A DNA stretch of 64,000 nucleotides from positions 1,152,001-1,216,000 of the forward strand of contig OY969559.1 in assembly GCA_963701075.1 (NCBI GenBank), written 5' to 3'. A program made the translations under genes and the position numbers. Below, piece after piece: positions 6,514 through 58,526 of this stretch (the first letter of the stretch is position 1; the number at the start of each line of letters is the position of its first letter). The stretch is from an uncultured Nitrososphaerota archaeon (GTDB lineage: Archaea; Thermoproteota; Nitrososphaeria; Nitrososphaerales; Nitrosopumilaceae). The notes under the pieces were generated by a model. That model worked only from the letters and a program-made list of their open reading frames with translations, did not search any database and was not told where the DNA came from.

Positions 6514-7686
6514 CTAGGTCAATGCTATTTTGGAATCAACCTTGATGTGTATCTTCTCGCCAGTGTGCTGATGATCATTGTAAATCATTTTGGTTTTAAT
6601 TCCTTTTTTGTTCAGGTATCCTTCAAGCAAAAGTGCCCAGGGAATCGAATGACCGCTGTTCATCTTTGATTCTATTACAAAGTGATTGCCCTGTGACTCA
6701 TATCTGAGATGGCCTGAACATGTGATATCTAGGGTAGAGTCAACCAGGGAAATTATCTCGTCAAGTGTCTTTGATTGTAGGTCTAACCCGTTTTTCTCCA
6801 AGAATACTATGATGTCTATCCCTTTGCCTTTTGAGTTTAGCATTGAATTTAGGACAAATCCCAGGCCATTTTCATTTATCAATTGTACTACCTTGAGGGT
6901 CTCTTGCGCATCTGACTTTGTCATGTCTGATAAATTGTTAACCCTCATCCCGCTCTTCCAAGTCTGTTCAAAAGTCTTGACCTGGTTTGTGCCAAGCACA
7001 TCCGTGGATAGAAATATCGCACCCTTGCCGTTGCTGCTGTTAATCATAAGAATCTCGGAATCATCAAAAGTAATCATGTTTTGAGAAACCTCTGCAGTTT
7101 TGAGCCTTATTTCTGCTGGCAAGTTGTGACAAGCCTCTGTTCCTACCAAGTTTGACGGAATTATTATCTTGATATCAATATTTCTTCTCAGAGCTACCAA
7201 GAGCTCTTCTTTGCACTGCGAGATAAGGTTGAGTCCCCACGAATCAATTATTGCATGAACTGATGTCTTGGAACCATCTATCATTGACTGGAATTGTTTG
7301 AATACATAGTTCTGAGTAAGGTGAAAATATCTTTTCTCTTCTGAGCCTCTTGCCTTTTTGCTATCCTCGCTGAGCCGCTTTAGTTTGGTGGTCAGGCTGT
7401 TCATTGCATTTACGCGGTTTATCTGATCTTGTATGATTTCATCAAATGCATCTTCTGGAGCAATGGCAGTGCACATTATTGGTTTGCTTTTTGATATTAT
7501 CGCAATCTTCTTTTTTTCAAGTTTTAGTAGCGTTGGATACACCTTGGTTCTGGGCAAGTCGGAATAATATGCAAGCTCGCTTGCAGATATCGTGCCTTTT
7601 GTAATCAGTGTGACATAGGCTTGGGCTTCGTATTTGCTCAGACCAAATTCTTCCAAGCTTACTGCTAAATCTTGCCCCTTTACCAT
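6514..7686 (-). CDS. TrmB family transcriptional regulator
   Basis: LEEFGLSKYEAQAY..L...G...ASELA....LPRTKVY TrmB HTH. Confidence 0.92.
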   Translation of the reverse strand: MVKGQDLAVSLEEFGLSKYEAQAYVTLITKGTISASELAYYSDLPRTKVYPTLLKLEKKKIAIISKSKPIMCTAIAPEDAFDEIIQDQINRVNAMNSLTTKLKRLSEDSKKARGSEEKRYFHLTQNYVFKQFQSMIDGSKTSVHAIIDSWGLNLISQCKEELLVALRRNIDIKIIIPSNLVGTEACHNLPAEIRLKTAEVSQNMITFDDSEILMINSSNGKGAIFLSTDVLGTNQVKTFEQTWKSGMRVNNLSDMTKSDAQETLKVVQLINENGLGFVLNSMLNSKGKGIDIIVFLEKNGLDLQSKTLDEIISLVDSTLDITCSGHLRYESQGNHFVIESKMNSGHSIPWALLLEGYLNKKGIKTKMIYNDHQHTGEKIHIKVDSKIALT

Positions 7687-7763
7687 GGCAGAAATTATTT
7701 ATTTGTAAGGTAAGCTTAATCAGCTAAATTCATTGAACAAAGGCTAGAAAAAATACTAAGCTG

Positions 7764-8195
7764 GAACTGTTATCTTTAGATTACCAGCAAATTTTTTATT
7801 AAATAATAGGTTTTACCAAATACTCGATGATTGCATATACGTTACACCAAATCATGGTAATGATAACATAACCTGAGCCTTTTTTACTGTCATCTCATCT
7901 TTCAATTTAGAACTTGATCACCACAGAACAATACGGGAGTCAAATGAATGCAAACAAAATAAGCACCAGCAAGACCTGTCCGGTAGGCGGAGATAACTCT
8001 AAGGGGGCAGGCTATGACATCTATGAATCGTGGTGCAGTAAGCACGCCTTTTCGGCTGTGCGGTGTGGGCTAGGTTTACCCATACTGGAGGGCTTTCAGA
8101 GGAAGTGATGATAAGGAACATGGATAACATACAGCCACTAATCCTTGGAGTAGATGAAAGCAAGTTTACTTGTCAACCTACAAGTGGACAGAACC
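7764..8195 (+). mobile_element. Non-autonomous, internally deleted derivative (MITE-like) of the tnpB TIR element, retaining the putative omegaRNA segment
   Basis: Flanked by direct repeat CTAAGCTG (7756-7763, 8196-8203); right end GACAGAACC; 8088-8111 identical to 58379-58402; degenerate tnpB Zn-finger remnant (TSKTCPVGG..SWCS). Confidence 0.8.
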
Positions 8196-8279
8196 CTAAG
8201 CTGTATCTGAAGACTGTGTTACTGTGGTGACACAAGTTACCGTAACATGGGTTTGATATATCAAAACCCAATCTTGTAA

Positions 8280-8849
8280 TTGAAAATGGCAACTCAATCA
8301 AAATGGGTAATAGAAGATGAGAGCAAAAATCAGATTGTCCGTGCCAGTACCATCAAACCCCGGCTGGATTATGCAACCGAGACTGTGGATGGCATATTGG
8401 AAATCTTAGTACAAAAAAGACGCGATTTGAACGAGTCTAACTTGATGCTCTATAGAAGATCTGACGGCACTACAGAATCGCTCAAAGTACTTGAAAGAGA
8501 AGTACGACATGAGCTTGAAATCTCATACGCCGTAGAATCGTTAAGGCAGGTAAGGCGAAGCCTTGATTCCATTGCAGGCATGGGAAATGTCCCTACCGGT
8601 CTTGCTCCTACGATATCAATTGTAAGAATAGTCAGGTCAAGGATGCTCTCTTTGCTGCCTGTAATTGACCTTGATCTTGGCGAGCTATCTCTTCTCTTGT
8701 CTGGGGTGATAATAGATGCGGCACACCTTGCAAGCTCCACTCTTGACTTTGAAAGGGCAAATGAAGAGTCGCAAAGGCTATTGGATGAAGCTAAATTGAT
8801 TGCTGACTCTAAAATATACAAGCAGTTTCCTAATCTAGATTTCCTGTAA
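8280..8849 (+). CDS. CdvB/ESCRT-III (Snf7-like) paralogue
   Basis: LAPTISIVR..., ANEESQRLLDEA...KI...FPNL CdvB-type C-terminus; two genes upstream of cdvC. Confidence 0.78.
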   Translation: MKMATQSKWVIEDESKNQIVRASTIKPRLDYATETVDGILEILVQKRRDLNESNLMLYRRSDGTTESLKVLEREVRHELEISYAVESLRQVRRSLDSIAGMGNVPTGLAPTISIVRIVRSRMLSLLPVIDLDLGELSLLLSGVIIDAAHLASSTLDFERANEESQRLLDEAKLIADSKIYKQFPNLDFL

Positions 8850-9441: not shown

Positions 9442-10626
9442 ATGAGCCTAGCACCGCAAGAGTTAGAAAATAGCGCAAGTAGATTTGCTGCGGAAGCCAT
9501 AAAGTCTTGACTCACAAGGCGCACGTGGTATGGCAATCTCTAACTACCAGAGGGCAGTAGAATCGCTCACAAAGCTAATTCACCTATATCCTGAAAACAA
9601 ACTAAATAGAGTATACCAAGAACGTGTCGCTGCATATCAGAATCGTATCAAAGCATTACAATTGACTAATGTGGATATAGAGCCAGCTGTTGATCCAAAA
9701 GCAACCCCTGAAGAGCAGAAACAGTCCCTGACAAAAAATGAACTTGATTCATTGATAATGAAGGAAAAGCCAAACGTCAGCTGGGCAGAAGTAATTGGTC
9801 TTGATGATGCAAAAAACGCACTCCGAGAATCTATTGTTTATCCTGCTAAACGTCCTGACCTATTTCCACTTGGATGGCCAAGAGGAATACTGCTTTATGG
9901 TCCTCCTGGATGTGGCAAGACAGTACTTGCAGCAGCTACTGCAAGCGAGATTGATGGATATTTCATTAATGTAGATGCTGCCTCTATGATGAGCAAGTGG
10001 TTGGGTGAGGCAGAGAAGAATGTTTCAAAGCTATTCACCATGGCAAGAGGAATGGCTGAAAAAGAAGGGTTACCAGTAATATTGTTTATCGATGAAGTGG
10101 ACTCACTTCTTGGAAACCGCAATAGTGAGATAGGAGGAGAGATTAGAGTCAAAAATCAGTTTTTGACCGAGATGGACGGCATCAACGGAAAAGGAAAAGA
10201 TCTCAACTCTATGTCATAGGGGCTACAAACAAACCATGGAGCCTTGACTGGCCGTTTCTTAGGAGATTTACAAAAAGAGTCTATGTGTCGCTTCCAACGC
10301 TAGAAGCAAGAGTTAGTCTTTTTGAGCTTTATACCGCACCACTTCAAAAGGATGAAAAATCAAAACCGTCCGAGCTTGCAAAACTGGCAGACGGATACAG
10401 CGCAAGTGACATCAAAGACATTTGCCAGTCTGCACAGTTAATGGTTGTAAATGACTTGTTCCACTCGCCGGCATTCCAAGACCCTGTAGTGGGAGAAGCG
10501 CCACCGCAACCACGCCAGATCACCATGTCTGACTTTAAGGAAATAATCACAAGACGAAAGCCAAGTGTAAGCATGGAAATGATTCGCGCCTATTACAAGT
10601 GGAGCGATCAATTCAAGGCCCTGTAG
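9442..10626 (+). CDS. cdvC: CdvC/Vps4 AAA+ ATPase (two frameshifts, ~9505 and ~10206)
   Basis: MIT domain MSLAPQELENSASRFAAEAIK..., Walker A GPPGCGKT, Walker B FIDEVD, Vps4-like C-terminus. Confidence 0.92.
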
Positions 10627-57172: not shown

Positions 57173-57215
57173 AGATCAGTGATTCCACCTTTTGATATTT
57201 TTGCGTATGCTTTAA

Positions 57216-58506
57216 GATTTTGTTAACTCTTCGGTTGTTTACATAACCTAGATTATAACAATATAACCAAGTCTTTTTCTTGTAGACAAATCCTCATCTG
57301 ATAATTGTACGCCATAAAATCCATAAAACAGACTTATTCAAATGCTGAACTTGGCACCATGATGGATACATTCAAGGAGATGGTAAACCATTGTATCAGG
57401 ATTGGGCTTGAGAACAATGTTTCCACGCTGAAGAAATTCTCGTCAATGTTTTATCATGAGCTTCAAAGCTACCAAATCCAGTCAAAATACAAACTTACTG
57501 CAATGTCACAGGCCTGCGGAAGGCTCTCACAGATGAAGCAAGAGATCAGGAAGGGGAGGAGCGCAAAGTCTCCTTATGTAAGAAGACCATACTTGGTGTC
57601 ATGTTATGGATTCAAGGTTAACGGAATGTTGTTGTCAATTCCAACAGGAAACAGAAACTACATCAATGTTATACTAAATGAGCATACCATGAAAAAGCTC
57701 GCAGAGGAGGGTGTCAGGCCAAGGTGTTTACAATCACCCCAAACTCATTATCCATTTCAGTGAGAAAAGAAGTAGAGGAGATTAGATGCAATAACGTAAT
57801 CGGAATAGACAGAAATTTAAGAAATGTCACCATCTCTACACAGTCAGGACCGGTCATGTACAAGACCGGAAAGTTACTGTCAATAAAGGAAAATTCCCAG
57901 TTTGTAAGAGCGTCATTTAGAAGACACGACGTGAGAGTCAAAAACAAGTTCTTTGCACCGAGAAGGAACAGGCAGTCAAGACGGATACAACAGTATCTGC
58001 ATAAAATATCGAGGGATATTGTGAGTAGAGCAAAAGAGTCAAAGGCAATCATTGCCTTTGAGGATCTAAAAGGAATTCGCAAGTTGTATCAAAAGGGGAA
58101 CGGCCAAGGAAAGAAATTCAGACGAAGATTAAACTCCTGGTCATTTTACGAGTTGCAGAGACAGATTGTATACAAGGCATCATGGGAGGGAATTCCAGTC
58201 AGATTCGTAGATCCAAAACGCACCAGCCAACTCTGTCCAATATGCGGAGATAGAATCCAAGAGGACAAGTTTCACAGACGAAAATCATGGTGCAGTAATT
58301 GTAGGAAATCAATTGACCGCGATGTTGTCGCGGCACTGAACATATCTTACAAGGGGTGGAGTAGGTTTTGCCATCCTAGAGGGCTTTCAGAGGAAGTGAT
58401 GAGGGGGAATGTGGAAAACTTTCAGCCACTAATCCTCAGAGTAGATGGAAGCAAGTTGATCTCGGTATGAATGTTTTATGCAAACAACCGAAGAATTAAC
58501 AGAACC
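57216..58506 (+). mobile_element. tnpB-only transposon with IS6-like 31-bp TIRs and an 8-bp TSD
   Basis: TIRs 57216-57246 and 58476-58506 (27/31 match); direct repeat TGCTTTAA at 57208-57215 and 58507-58514; no transposase gene inside. Confidence 0.88.
57305..58470 (+). CDS. tnpB: RNA-guided nuclease TnpB (frameshift ~57722)
   Basis: RuvC-I GIDRN, RuvC-II FEDL, WSFYELQRQIVYKA, TSQLCPICG/CSNC Zn finger, RuvC-III DRDVVAALNI. Confidence 0.93.
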
Positions 58507-58526
58507 TGCTTTAATAGTTAAATTGG
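58355..58526 (+). ncRNA. Putative TnpB omegaRNA (scaffold overlapping the tnpB 3' end, plus flank-derived guide); boundaries approximate
   Basis: Position typical of omegaRNA; nucleotide conservation with 8065-8195 peaks here; hairpin GCTTTC-AGA-GGAAGT. Confidence 0.55.

What the first reader, a model, noticed from the sequence alone, without database searches (positions are those of the whole stretch)
7756..8203. omegaRNA-retaining MITE between trmB and the cdvB-cdvC cluster
Seen in sequence: a ~430-bp element with its own direct repeat CTAAGCTG. It has a right TIR (rc GGTTCTGTCCACTTGTAGGTTG, sharing GGTTCTGT...GGTTG with the 57-kb element) and a decayed left TIR ((G)GAACTGTTATCTTTAGATT). 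7862-7908 resembles the tnpB upstream region 57256-57306. Almost all tnpB coding sequence, including the RuvC-III Asp, is gone. The downstream segment is the best conserved: a 24-nt identity, then CAGCCACTAATCCT and GAGTAGATG.AAGCAAGTT. Inference: the RNA scaffold may be under selection, giving a trans-acting guide (CTAAGCTGTATCTGAAG...) usable by TnpB from another locus. It sits in the divergent promoter region of a TrmB regulator and cell-division genes. It is also a second, independent example of the TIR plus 8-bp TSD architecture.
Basis: partly seen in the sequence, partly recalled or inferred. Interest (0 to 1): 0.78.

Follow-up and report, generated by a model that had tools for sequence, protein, structure and literature searches.

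The report
Guide-RNA-only mini transposon with IS6-type ends
A 432-bp jumping-gene remnant in an archaeal genome has lost its nuclease gene tnpB but keeps that nuclease's guide-RNA scaffold, and related gene-less copies preserve the RNA fold by compensating mutations, so these mini-elements probably borrow both a transposase and a nuclease made elsewhere.

Summary
Window 7764-8195 is a 432-bp insertion flanked by CTAAGCTG on both sides. Four close relatives carry the empty site with one CTAAGCTG.

It is an internal-deletion derivative of a TnpB-only element. The family's ends (GG tip, CTGT) and 8-bp duplications match IS6-family (PF13610) transposase elements of the same genus. No Y1 TnpA was found in this genome.

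The retained 3' part is a structured RNA that runs to within 6 nt of the right end. In 12 tnpB-less copies, 92% of cells pair, against 29-46% in slid controls. Nineteen pairs changed on both sides. Variable sites show no codon periodicity. The core diverges less than the rest in 53 of 55 pairs.

All 15 duplication-confirmed elements have T-A or T-G just 5' of the left duplication. Another TnpB subfamily with the same ends has TGY. This looks like a TAM.

Expression and TnpB use are untested. The concept is known from omegaRNA-bearing PATEs (PMC10055086), so this is a new variant. This scan earlier noted IS6-type TnpB remnants on other DNA. Several comparison copies come from unpublished genomes.

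The parts
7754..7755 (+). TA immediately 5' of the left target duplication: candidate TAM of the empty site
   Evidence: All 15 of 15 TSD-confirmed elements of this scaffold family have T then A or G here (12 TA, 3 TG). The genome frequency of TA plus TG is 0.14.
7756..7763 (.). left copy of the 8-bp target site duplication CTAAGCTG
   Evidence: There is a single copy at the empty site in G032, G077, G031 and G036.
7764..7785 (+). left terminal inverted repeat, decayed (GAACTGTTATC...)
   Evidence: It keeps the CTGTT motif. The local aligner could not find it as partner of the right end.
7860..7886 (+). promoter-like string (ATAACC...TTTTTT) shared by eye with the tnpB upstream regions of some family members
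   Evidence: The pairwise match to 57252-57278 is not significant (148 of 500 shuffles). The promoter role is inferred only.
7960..8041 (+). decayed remnant of the tnpB zinc-finger coding region
   Evidence: It aligns to the CPICGD...WCSNC region of the 57-kb tnpB. It is 83.6% identical to a truncated second copy at genome 219841-220037.
8042..8061 (+). hairpin H-b (GCACGCC...GGCTGTGC), which replaces the RuvC-III coding hairpin of full-length copies
   Evidence: Helix 2: 7 pairs, 4 with changes on both sides, 96.3% of cells paired among tnpB-less copies.
8062..8166 (+). omegaRNA-like core. Helices: P1 8062-8068/8080-8086, P2 8092-8098/8155-8161, P3 8113-8117/8142-8146, P4 8120-8123/8135-8138.
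   Evidence: RNAalifold on 29 copies. This copy keeps 27 of 28 consensus pairs, with an A/C mismatch in P4. The covariance model scores it 130.3 bits over all 148 model positions. It was in the training alignment, so that score is inflated by construction.
8164..8189 (+). terminal hairpin P5, whose 3' arm is the inner half of the right TIR
   Evidence: One search gives a 10-bp stem in the MFE fold. One search gives the closing pairs 117-121/166-170, which covary (AU 9, GC 8, GU 7, UA 2).
8174..8195 (-). right terminal inverted repeat (GGTTCTGTCCACTTGTAGGTTG on the minus strand)
   Evidence: The terminus ACAGAACC is present in every copy aligned.
8196..8215 (+). right copy of the duplication plus flank: predicted guide portion of the transcript
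   Evidence: Inferred from omegaRNA logic. The 20-mer has no other match with up to 3 mismatches in the genome, and the 16-mer has none with up to 2. It matches the empty sites of relatives with 1-2 mismatches in 20 nt for G032 and G077.
57216..58506 (+). related full-length tnpB element (1291 bp) with TIRs, TGCTTTAA duplication at 57208-57215 and 58507-58514, and tnpB split over two frames
   Evidence: The scaffold at 58353-58506 scores 153.7 bits.

Best explanation
Window 7764-8195 is a non-autonomous mini-transposon. It descends from a TnpB-only element that moves by means of an IS6-family DDE transposase supplied in trans.

An internal deletion removed almost the whole tnpB gene. What remains is the two ends, a leader with a promoter-like string, and the omegaRNA scaffold. 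In full-length copies that scaffold overlaps the 3' end of tnpB and runs to the right end.

Proposed mechanism:
- A transcript made on the + strand folds into the scaffold (H-b and P1-P5).
- It reads out of the element into the duplicated 8 bp plus flank, which forms the guide.
- A TnpB made by another element of the same scaffold family loads this RNA. An intact copy lies at genome 144.5 kb.
- The complex can then cut an unoccupied copy of this site: TA, then CTAAGCTG, then flank.
- Repair from an occupied copy restores or spreads the insertion.
- At the occupied site the target is preceded by ...GAACC, not T-R, so it is spared.

Shown: the insertion and its duplication; the IS6-type ends and a matching transposase element; RNA-level conservation of the scaffold in tnpB-less relatives; the T-R motif.

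Inferred: transcription, guide identity, TnpB loading, cleavage and homing.
For: Insertion:
- The empty site is present in 4 of 4 closest published relatives examined.

IS6 link:
- The genome holds one PF13610 transposase (69 bits, cut-off 27). It lies in a 2278-bp element with GGCTCTGT... TIRs and a perfect 8-bp duplication.
- Two more transposase elements have perfect 8-bp duplications, and one has TIRs only. These came from 12 regions fetched.
- One of their TIRs matches a tnpB-element TIR at 22 of 25 positions.
- The IS6 review states 8-bp repeats, a GG tip and a cTGTt motif (PMC7986276, passages).
- No Y1 TnpA was found in this genome, yet it has 9 tnpB loci.
- PF13610 matched in 16 of the 18 genus genomes with the scaffold, against 6 of the 18 without it. 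These genomes are kin, not independent.

Scaffold, all copies:
- 28 consensus pairs, 10 with both sides changed.

Scaffold, tnpB-less copies only (12 rows from 6 genomes):
- 92.3% of cells paired, against 29-46% when slid.
- 19 pairs changed on both sides, against 4-7 when slid.
- 0 of 500 shuffles reach any measure.
- For the 6 rows from published genomes alone: 87.8% against 29-44%, and 17 against 2-4.
- Invariant G-U pairs fix the strand.
- Variable sites show no codon periodicity: 16/58, 16/57, 20/57.
- The TnpB frame is broken in 4 of 12 copies.
- Mean pairwise identity is 0.77 in the core and 0.55 in the left interior. The core is higher in 53 of 55 pairs. It is higher in all 15 published-only pairs read from the same table.

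Other evidence:
- Independent deletion: a 306-bp element in G016 fuses codon ~33 of tnpB directly to the core start.
- Orphans are common. Of 38 plus-strand model hits of at least 80 bits with at least 1250 nt upstream, 23 follow a full tnpB, 4 a partial one and 11 none.
- TAM-like motif: T-R in 15 of 15 elements. That includes 7 of 7 short elements, all of them TA. A different TnpB subfamily with the same TIR type has TGY in 4 of 4. Only 1 of 6 flanks of 3 transposase elements is TA.
- An intact TnpB of the family (401 aa) is at genome 144.5 kb. It matches TnpB and Cas12f structures.
Against: - There are no expression data of any kind.
- This copy lacks helix H-a. It fails 3 of 4 pairs of the P2 extension and 1 of 4 pairs in P4.
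- Its left TIR is decayed, and it is single-copy. The only other copy in the genome (219841-220037) is truncated exactly before the scaffold.
- Its nearest tnpB (57 kb) reads as frameshifted. The scaffold of the intact 144.5-kb copy is only about 76% identical over 85 nt, so cognate use is uncertain.
- Some short relatives keep only part of the core: a 383-bp element in G036 and a 438-bp element in an unpublished genome.
- My short elements were found through the core itself, so their retention of it is partly ascertainment.
- G073 has 6 scaffold hits but only weak TnpB matches (best E 4.5e-28).
- IS6-family elements are described as moving by cointegrates, which leaves no vacated donor site to re-cut (general knowledge of IS26; the review's section listing mentions this). 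The benefit would then have to be homing into empty alleles.
- Gene conversion from full-length copies could keep cores similar. The tnpB-less clade has its own signature substitutions, which speaks against this.
Confidence: 0.6

Rival explanations
1. It is a dead relic: a decaying deletion remnant with no activity of its own. The scaffold looks good only because the copy is young, or because its ancestors were full-length elements in which the RNA was selected.
For: - It is a single complete copy, with one truncated copy that lacks the scaffold.
- The left TIR is decayed.
- H-a is absent and four scored pairs are broken.
- The insertion post-dates the split from relatives whose flanks are 93% identical, so little time has passed for decay.
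- Relatives with partial cores exist.
- Two earlier notes of this scan read similar IS6-type TnpB remnants in other genomes as dead (unchecked AI notes).
Against: - Family-level evidence shows that tnpB-less copies keep the fold through compensatory change. This includes a hairpin (H-b) that full-length copies do not have in that form.
- The core evolves more slowly than the rest of the same elements.
- All 7 TSD-confirmed short elements sit next to TA.
Confidence: 0.27
2. The conserved structure is a DNA-level cis element that the transposase needs at the right end, not an RNA.
For: The last helix uses the inner half of the right TIR, and the structure ends 6 nt from the terminus.
Against: - Invariant G-U pairs would be C-A mismatches on the other strand.
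- In this genome, all 7 covariance-model hits lie at tnpB 3' ends or in this element. None lies in the transposase element at 1816906-1819183.
- The structure is at one end only, although the TIRs are symmetric.
Confidence: 0.05
3. The short elements encode a small protein, a C-terminal TnpB fragment or an overlapping ORF, and that explains the conservation.
For: Open frames of about 50-85 codons run through the module in several copies, including 7914-8108 and 8063-8230 here.
Against: - Variable sites show no three-base periodicity in any frame: 16/58, 16/57, 20/57 in the close set and 33/54, 33/52, 34/53 in the set of 11.
- The frames are interrupted in the more distant copies, which still keep the pairs.
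- The TnpB frame has no start codon.
Confidence: 0.03
4. The insertion has been co-opted to regulate the divergent trmB and cdvB-like promoters, by read-out transcription or by an RNA-guided repressor.
For: It lies 70 nt upstream of the trmB start and about 90 nt upstream of the cdvB-like start. Its predicted transcript points into the cdvB-like gene.
Against: - It is absent from the four closest relatives.
- The guide has no second target in the genome.
- At the occupied site the target lacks the T-R motif.
Confidence: 0.05

Closest known systems
PATEs of IS200/IS605 that encode omegaRNAs (Meers et al. 2023 preprint, PMC10055086; passages read)
   Same: Both are protein-less derivatives of TnpB elements. 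Both keep the ends and the guide-RNA module, and both would need TnpB and a transposase from other elements.
   Different: PATEs have no TIRs and no target duplication, and a Y1 TnpA moves them. This element has TIRs and an 8-bp duplication, its matching transposase is a DDE enzyme, and no Y1 TnpA was found in the genome. Here the duplicated 8 bp would form the start of the guide.
IS6/IS26-family insertion sequences and their MITEs (Varani et al. 2021, PMC7986276; passages read)
   Same: 8-bp direct target repeats; a G dinucleotide at the tip and a cTGTt motif in the inverted repeat; a PF13610 transposase with matching ends in the same genome and genus.
   Different: The review's text does not mention TnpB (0 occurrences). 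The transposase elements here are 2.3-2.5 kb, with 456-476-aa open frames and extra ORFs, against 700-890 bp for most of the family. This short element carries a structured RNA module and is low-copy.
DDE-transposase-associated TnpB branches and eukaryotic Fanzors (Altae-Tran et al. 2023, PMC10691335, passages; review PMC13565253, passages)
   Same: TnpB sits inside elements with inverted terminal repeats. Solo TnpB copies are bounded by the same ends as transposase-bearing copies. The tnpB 3' end lies within 250 bp of the end.
   Different: The passages I read name IS630, ISL2 and IS1031, not IS6. The supplements, which might list this branch, could not be seen. Guide-only derivatives of such DDE-type elements were not described in the passages read.
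ISDra2 TnpB-omegaRNA (PDB 8bf8, 8ex9, 8exa, 8h1j; sequence match only)
   Same: The family's TnpB matches this protein over the RuvC and zinc-finger region (E 1.8e-7). The RNA overlaps the gene's 3' end and abuts the right end.
   Different: No Rfam family matched the RNA. Likeness of its fold to the ISDra2 omegaRNA was not tested. The candidate TAM is two bases (T-R) and is separated from the element by the duplication.

Membership tests
IS6/IS26-family non-autonomous element (MITE) | 8-bp direct target duplication | tested here: met
   CTAAGCTG on both sides, and one copy at the empty site in 4 relatives.
IS6/IS26-family non-autonomous element (MITE) | short terminal inverted repeats with a GG tip and a cTGTt motif (PMC7986276) | tested here: met
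   The right end is GGTTCTGTC. The left end is G(G)AACTGTT, where the second G is shared with the duplication, and the rest of the left repeat is decayed.
IS6/IS26-family non-autonomous element (MITE) | a family transposase (DDE_Tnp_IS240, PF13610) with matching ends is available in trans | tested here: met
   One transposase element in this genome has GGCTCTGT ends and an 8-bp duplication. Genus relatives have TIRs that match tnpB-element TIRs at 22 of 25 positions. Activity was not tested.
IS6/IS26-family non-autonomous element (MITE) | no transposase gene inside | tested here: met
   The longest ORF is 64 aa.
IS6/IS26-family non-autonomous element (MITE) | multiple near-identical copies, as usual for MITEs | tested here: not met
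   The genome holds one complete copy and one truncated copy at 83.6% identity. Related short elements occur at 1-3 copies in other genomes.
TnpB omegaRNA (OMEGA guide RNA) | in full-length elements it lies at the 3' end of tnpB and runs to the right end | tested here: met
   Six of 7 model hits in this genome are at tnpB 3' ends. All aligned copies end in ACAGAACC.
TnpB omegaRNA (OMEGA guide RNA) | conserved secondary structure supported by covariation | tested here: met
   This copy pairs in 37 of 41 scored cells.
TnpB omegaRNA (OMEGA guide RNA) | a fixed motif (TAM) 5' of the sequence that the guide matches | tested here: inconclusive
   T-R in 15 of 15 elements, TGY in 4 of 4 of a second subfamily, and TA in 1 of 6 flanks of transposase elements. 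This fits a TAM, but no cleavage data exist.
TnpB omegaRNA (OMEGA guide RNA) | transcribed, processed and bound by TnpB | not testable with these tools
   No RNA run was listed.
TnpB omegaRNA (OMEGA guide RNA) | match to a curated RNA family | tested here: not met
   There were 0 Rfam matches at gathering score in the whole window.
IS200/IS605 family (IS1341 group) or PATE | no terminal inverted repeats, no target duplication, Y1 TnpA as transposase | tested here: not met
   TIRs and 8-bp duplications are present. PF01797 was not found in this single-contig genome, which is 95% complete.

The most novel reading that the evidence does not exclude
These are doubly parasitic guide-RNA-only transposons. 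An IS6-type DDE transposase moves them, and an RNA-guided TnpB made by sister elements maintains or spreads them. The 8-bp target duplication forms the first bases of the guide, and a subfamily-specific two- to three-base TAM lies just outside the duplication. That would be a prokaryotic counterpart of Fanzor-type coupling between a duplication-making DDE transposon and an RNA-guided nuclease. It would also mean that guide modules persist under selection on their own and swap between different TIR backbones.
Probability: 0.45. Interest if true: 0.75.

Novelty: new variant of a known kind. Interest (0 to 1): 0.6.

Why it matters
TnpB is usually explained through IS200/IS605 biology. There, scarless excision leaves a donor joint that the guide RNA re-cuts. 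Here the same nuclease-RNA pair sits in elements that make target duplications and use a DDE enzyme. The review read here calls that combination rare in prokaryotes and hard to rationalise (PMC13565253).

Three testable points follow:
- Whether the duplication becomes part of the guide.
- Whether the T-R (or TGY) next to the duplication is the TAM.
- Whether guide-only elements are kept by selection, because they recruit TnpB in trans.

About 3 in 10 scaffold copies in this genus lack tnpB (11 of 38), so the material for such tests exists in nature. The scaffold, about 150-175 nt with defined helices, and the small TnpB of about 400 aa are also a compact archaeal system with a very short candidate TAM.

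Tried and rejected
- Rfam scan of the window: 0 matches. tRNA scan: none.
- A wide-gap pattern search for TIR pairs across the genus would have given an unbiased sample of short elements. The retention rate of the scaffold among all short elements therefore stays unmeasured.
- RNA evidence: no RNA holder was listed for window 7600-8400.
- Single-sequence folding gave only modest z-scores: -1.69 for this copy and -2.34 for the 57-kb copy. I set it aside in favour of comparative analysis.
- Guide search: the 20-mer has no second genomic target with up to 3 mismatches, and the 16-mer has none with up to 2. Viral collections were not searched.
- The promoter motif regex was mis-specified and gave chance-level counts, so I dropped it. 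The pairwise promoter resemblance is not significant.
- The first attempts to find the ends of IS6 transposase elements in loci with 1500-nt flanks failed, because the left ends lay outside. Wider fetches solved this.
- Mini-ORF reading: rejected.
- Literature: searches for TnpB with MITE/omegaRNA, TnpB with IS6/TSD/TIR, TnpB with Nitrososphaerota terms and PATE with TnpB found no description of IS6-type TnpB elements or of their guide-only derivatives. Supplements of PMC10691335 and PMC6563490 could not be seen and may list them.
- Earlier-findings look-up by sequence: nothing.

Full report
1. WHAT IS THERE

The window lies at 1152001-1216000 of a single-contig 1.916-Mb genome. I did not check that.

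At 7756-7763 and 8196-8203 stands CTAAGCTG. Between the two copies lie 432 bp (7764-8195) with no ORF above 64 aa. The right end reads GGTTCTGTCCACTTGTAGGTTG on the minus strand. The left end GAACTGTTATC... is a decayed partner.

Four close published relatives (G032, G077, G031, G036; flanks 83-93% identical) read ...AAAAAATA CTAAGCTG TATCT... with one CTAAGCTG and no element. So this is a real insertion with an 8-bp target duplication. It was made after these lineages split.

Upstream lies a TrmB-family regulator. Downstream lie a weakly CdvB1/B2-like ORF and a Vps4/CdvC-like ATPase.

2. WHAT IT DESCENDS FROM

The 3' 105 nt (8062-8166) are 82.9% identical to the 3' end of the tnpB element at 57216-58506. 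They also match the 3' ends of tnpB genes in 18 of 36 other genomes of the genus, and none of 24 genomes of other genera of the order.

Upstream, 7960-8041 is a decayed copy of the zinc-finger coding region. A 34-nt gap removes the RuvC-III DRD. A second, truncated copy at genome 219841-220037 is 83.6% identical over 200 nt. It stops just before the scaffold.

3. HOW THE FAMILY MOVES

Every copy ends in ACAGAACC. Full-length elements of 1255-1307 bp and short ones of 306-796 bp carry 25-30-nt TIRs that begin GGTTCTGT, with perfect 8-bp duplications. Thirteen elements had 8 of 8 matches. To these add this element, and one with 7 of 8. Eleven of these 15 are in published genomes, and 4 rest on G011, G019 and G034.

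Several elements with good TIRs lack a duplication, for example L007, L008, L020, L027, L040 and L085.

A scan of this genome for such ends plus duplications also picked up the only PF13610 (IS6-family) transposase of the genome. It sits in a 2278-bp element with GGCTCTGT ends and TGTTTGAA on both sides.

Of 12 further transposase regions fetched from the genus:
- two gave elements of 2425 and 2453 bp with perfect 8-bp duplications;
- one gave TIRs without a duplication;
- the other nine gave no convincing TIR pair at my thresholds.

One of these TIRs matches the TIR of a tnpB element of this genome at 22 of 25 positions.

The IS6 review describes exactly these hallmarks: 8-bp repeats, a GG tip and a cTGTt motif (PMC7986276, passages). 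No Y1 TnpA (PF01797) was found in this genome, which has nine tnpB loci. I therefore read the tnpB elements and their short derivatives as non-autonomous passengers of an IS6-family transposase.

4. THE RNA

RNAalifold on 29 copies from core start to right end gives five helices with 28 pairs. Ten pairs have changes on both sides (8 of the 29 rows are from unpublished genomes). P1 alone shows four variants, and this element has a G-C to U-A change plus one extra pair. The last helix closes with the inner half of the right TIR and leaves AGAACC free. This element keeps 27 of the 28 pairs.

A search with one short relative found a clade of tnpB-less elements in six genomes: G000, G072, G073 and G086, and the unpublished G019 and G034. 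They share the zinc-finger remnant. They also share a short hairpin (H-b) where full-length copies have a longer hairpin that overlaps the DRD codons.

On these 12 tnpB-less rows, the structure (46 pairs in 7 helices) behaves as follows:
- 92.3% of cells pair, against 29-46% when the partners are slid.
- 19 pairs changed on both sides, against 4-7 when slid.
- The covariation score is 0.324, against 0.06-0.11 when slid.
- No shuffle out of 500 reaches the observed values.

With the six rows from published genomes only, the figures are 87.8% against 29-44%, and 17 against 2-4.

Paired columns vary as often as unpaired ones (28 of 81 against 24 of 91), and variable sites show no codon periodicity. 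The TnpB frame is broken in four of the twelve.

Mean pairwise identity among 11 copies:
- left interior: 0.55
- H-a/H-b module: 0.67
- core: 0.77
- terminal hairpin plus TIR: 0.52

The core exceeds the left interior in 53 of 55 pairs. In the published-only pairs of the same table it does so in 15 of 15.

Limits of these comparisons:
- Pairs of sequences are not independent.
- Identities near 0.35-0.45 are alignment noise.
- The short elements were found through the core.

5. HOW COMMON

A covariance model built from the 29 copies hits 33 of 63 genomes of the genus and seven places in this genome. Six are at tnpB 3' ends and the seventh is this element. It scores 130.3 bits, second in the genome, but it was in the training set.

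I crossed the 88 best hits with TnpB protein hits. That was 151 listed of 188; the weakest 37 were not listed. I kept the 38 plus-strand hits that have at least 1250 nt of upstream contig. Of these, 23 follow a full tnpB, 4 a partial one and 11 none. Three of the 11 are in unpublished genomes.

Not all short elements keep the whole core. Two keep only its 3' part, and the 220-kb copy keeps none.

6. A CANDIDATE TAM

In all 15 duplication-confirmed elements of this scaffold family, the two bases just 5' of the left duplication are T then A or G (12 TA, 3 TG). For the 11 in published genomes the split is 9 TA and 2 TG. All seven short elements have TA.

TA plus TG make up 0.14 of dinucleotides in this genome. 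The mirror position after the right duplication shows no such bias: 4 of 15 fit, by eye.

Four elements of a second TnpB subfamily, three in this genome and one in G064, have the same TIR type but TGC or TGT at that place. Of the six flanks of the three transposase elements, one is TA.

So the motif follows the nuclease-RNA type, not the ends. That is what a TAM would do. It would lie 5' of the sequence that the guide (duplication plus right flank) matches in an empty site. At the occupied site that sequence is preceded by GAACC.

7. WHAT IS NOT SHOWN

No RNA data could be had. No binding or cleavage was tested.

This copy lacks H-a and has four broken pairs. The nearest tnpB (57 kb) is split over two frames. 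The essential cdvC-like gene of the window is frameshifted as well, so the assembly may carry indel errors.

The intact 144.5-kb TnpB (401 aa) gives a Pfam TNB domain at 69 bits and matches TnpB and Cas12f structures. Its scaffold is only about 76% identical to this one.

8. KNOWN OR NEW

Guide-RNA-bearing protein-less derivatives are described for IS200/IS605 (PATEs; PMC10055086, passage). TnpB in DDE elements with inverted repeats is described for six branches (PMC10691335, passages). A 2026 review names ISL2, IS630 and IS1031 (PMC13565253).

I found no paper that links TnpB to IS6-type ends, and none on guide-only derivatives of DDE-type TnpB elements. Supplements could not be seen.

Two earlier notes of this scan reached the IS6-type reading for TnpB remnants in other genomes and called them dead.

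I class this as a new variant of a known kind.

Noticed in passing
window 9530-10626: The Vps4/CdvC-like ATPase is split into two ORFs: 9530-10219 (weak MIT plus AAA) and 10285-10626 (AAA lid plus Vps4_C). Around 10200 the conserved ...LYVIGATNKPW reading continues in another frame. This is a frameshift in a presumably essential gene, so the assembly may contain indel errors.
   Followed up: partly
window 57305-58470: The tnpB of the 1291-bp element is split over two overlapping frames (57305-57763 and 57724-58470). This is either a pseudogene or an assembly indel.
   Followed up: partly
genome G000:C1 170124-171403, about 243.7-245.0 kb (minus strand; L151:1403-2678 on the reverse strand), and 1776729-1778006; L143 (G064): A second TnpB subfamily has the same TIR type and 8-bp duplications but TGC or TGT, not T-R, just 5' of the left duplication (4 of 4). 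The motif follows the nuclease type.
   Followed up: partly
L083, L084, L109, L110, L114 (unpublished G034, G019) and L085 (G072): tnpB-less elements with 74-99% identical interiors carry different TIR types and different terminal hairpins (identity about 0.4-0.6 there). The guide module seems to move between TIR backbones, or the ends turn over fast.
   Followed up: no
genome G000:C1 1816906-1819183 (L132): The IS6-family element is 2278 bp, far longer than the 700-890 bp usual for the family. It carries a 265-aa ORF without a Pfam match, a 456-aa frame that holds a zinc-ribbon-like N-terminus and the DDE domain, and an antisense 88-aa ORF that looks ribbon-helix-helix-like by eye. An inverted 122-nt remnant (72%) of the transposase 3' end lies 1.3 kb downstream.
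   Followed up: partly
genome G073: There are six scaffold hits (best 114.7 bits) but only two weak TnpB matches (best E 4.5e-28) with the 144.5-kb protein as query. These may be orphan scaffolds without a close cognate nuclease.
   Followed up: no
genome G000:C1 219841-220085 (L021): A truncated second copy of this short element, with a GAGTTCTGTCTAATC-type left end, stops exactly before hairpin H-b and the core.
   Followed up: partly
window 8204-8260: The relatives conserve a palindromic block (TGTTACTGTGGTGACA...GTAACATGG) between the insertion point and the cdvB-like start. It may be an operator. The insertion separates it from the trmB side of the intergenic region.
   Followed up: no
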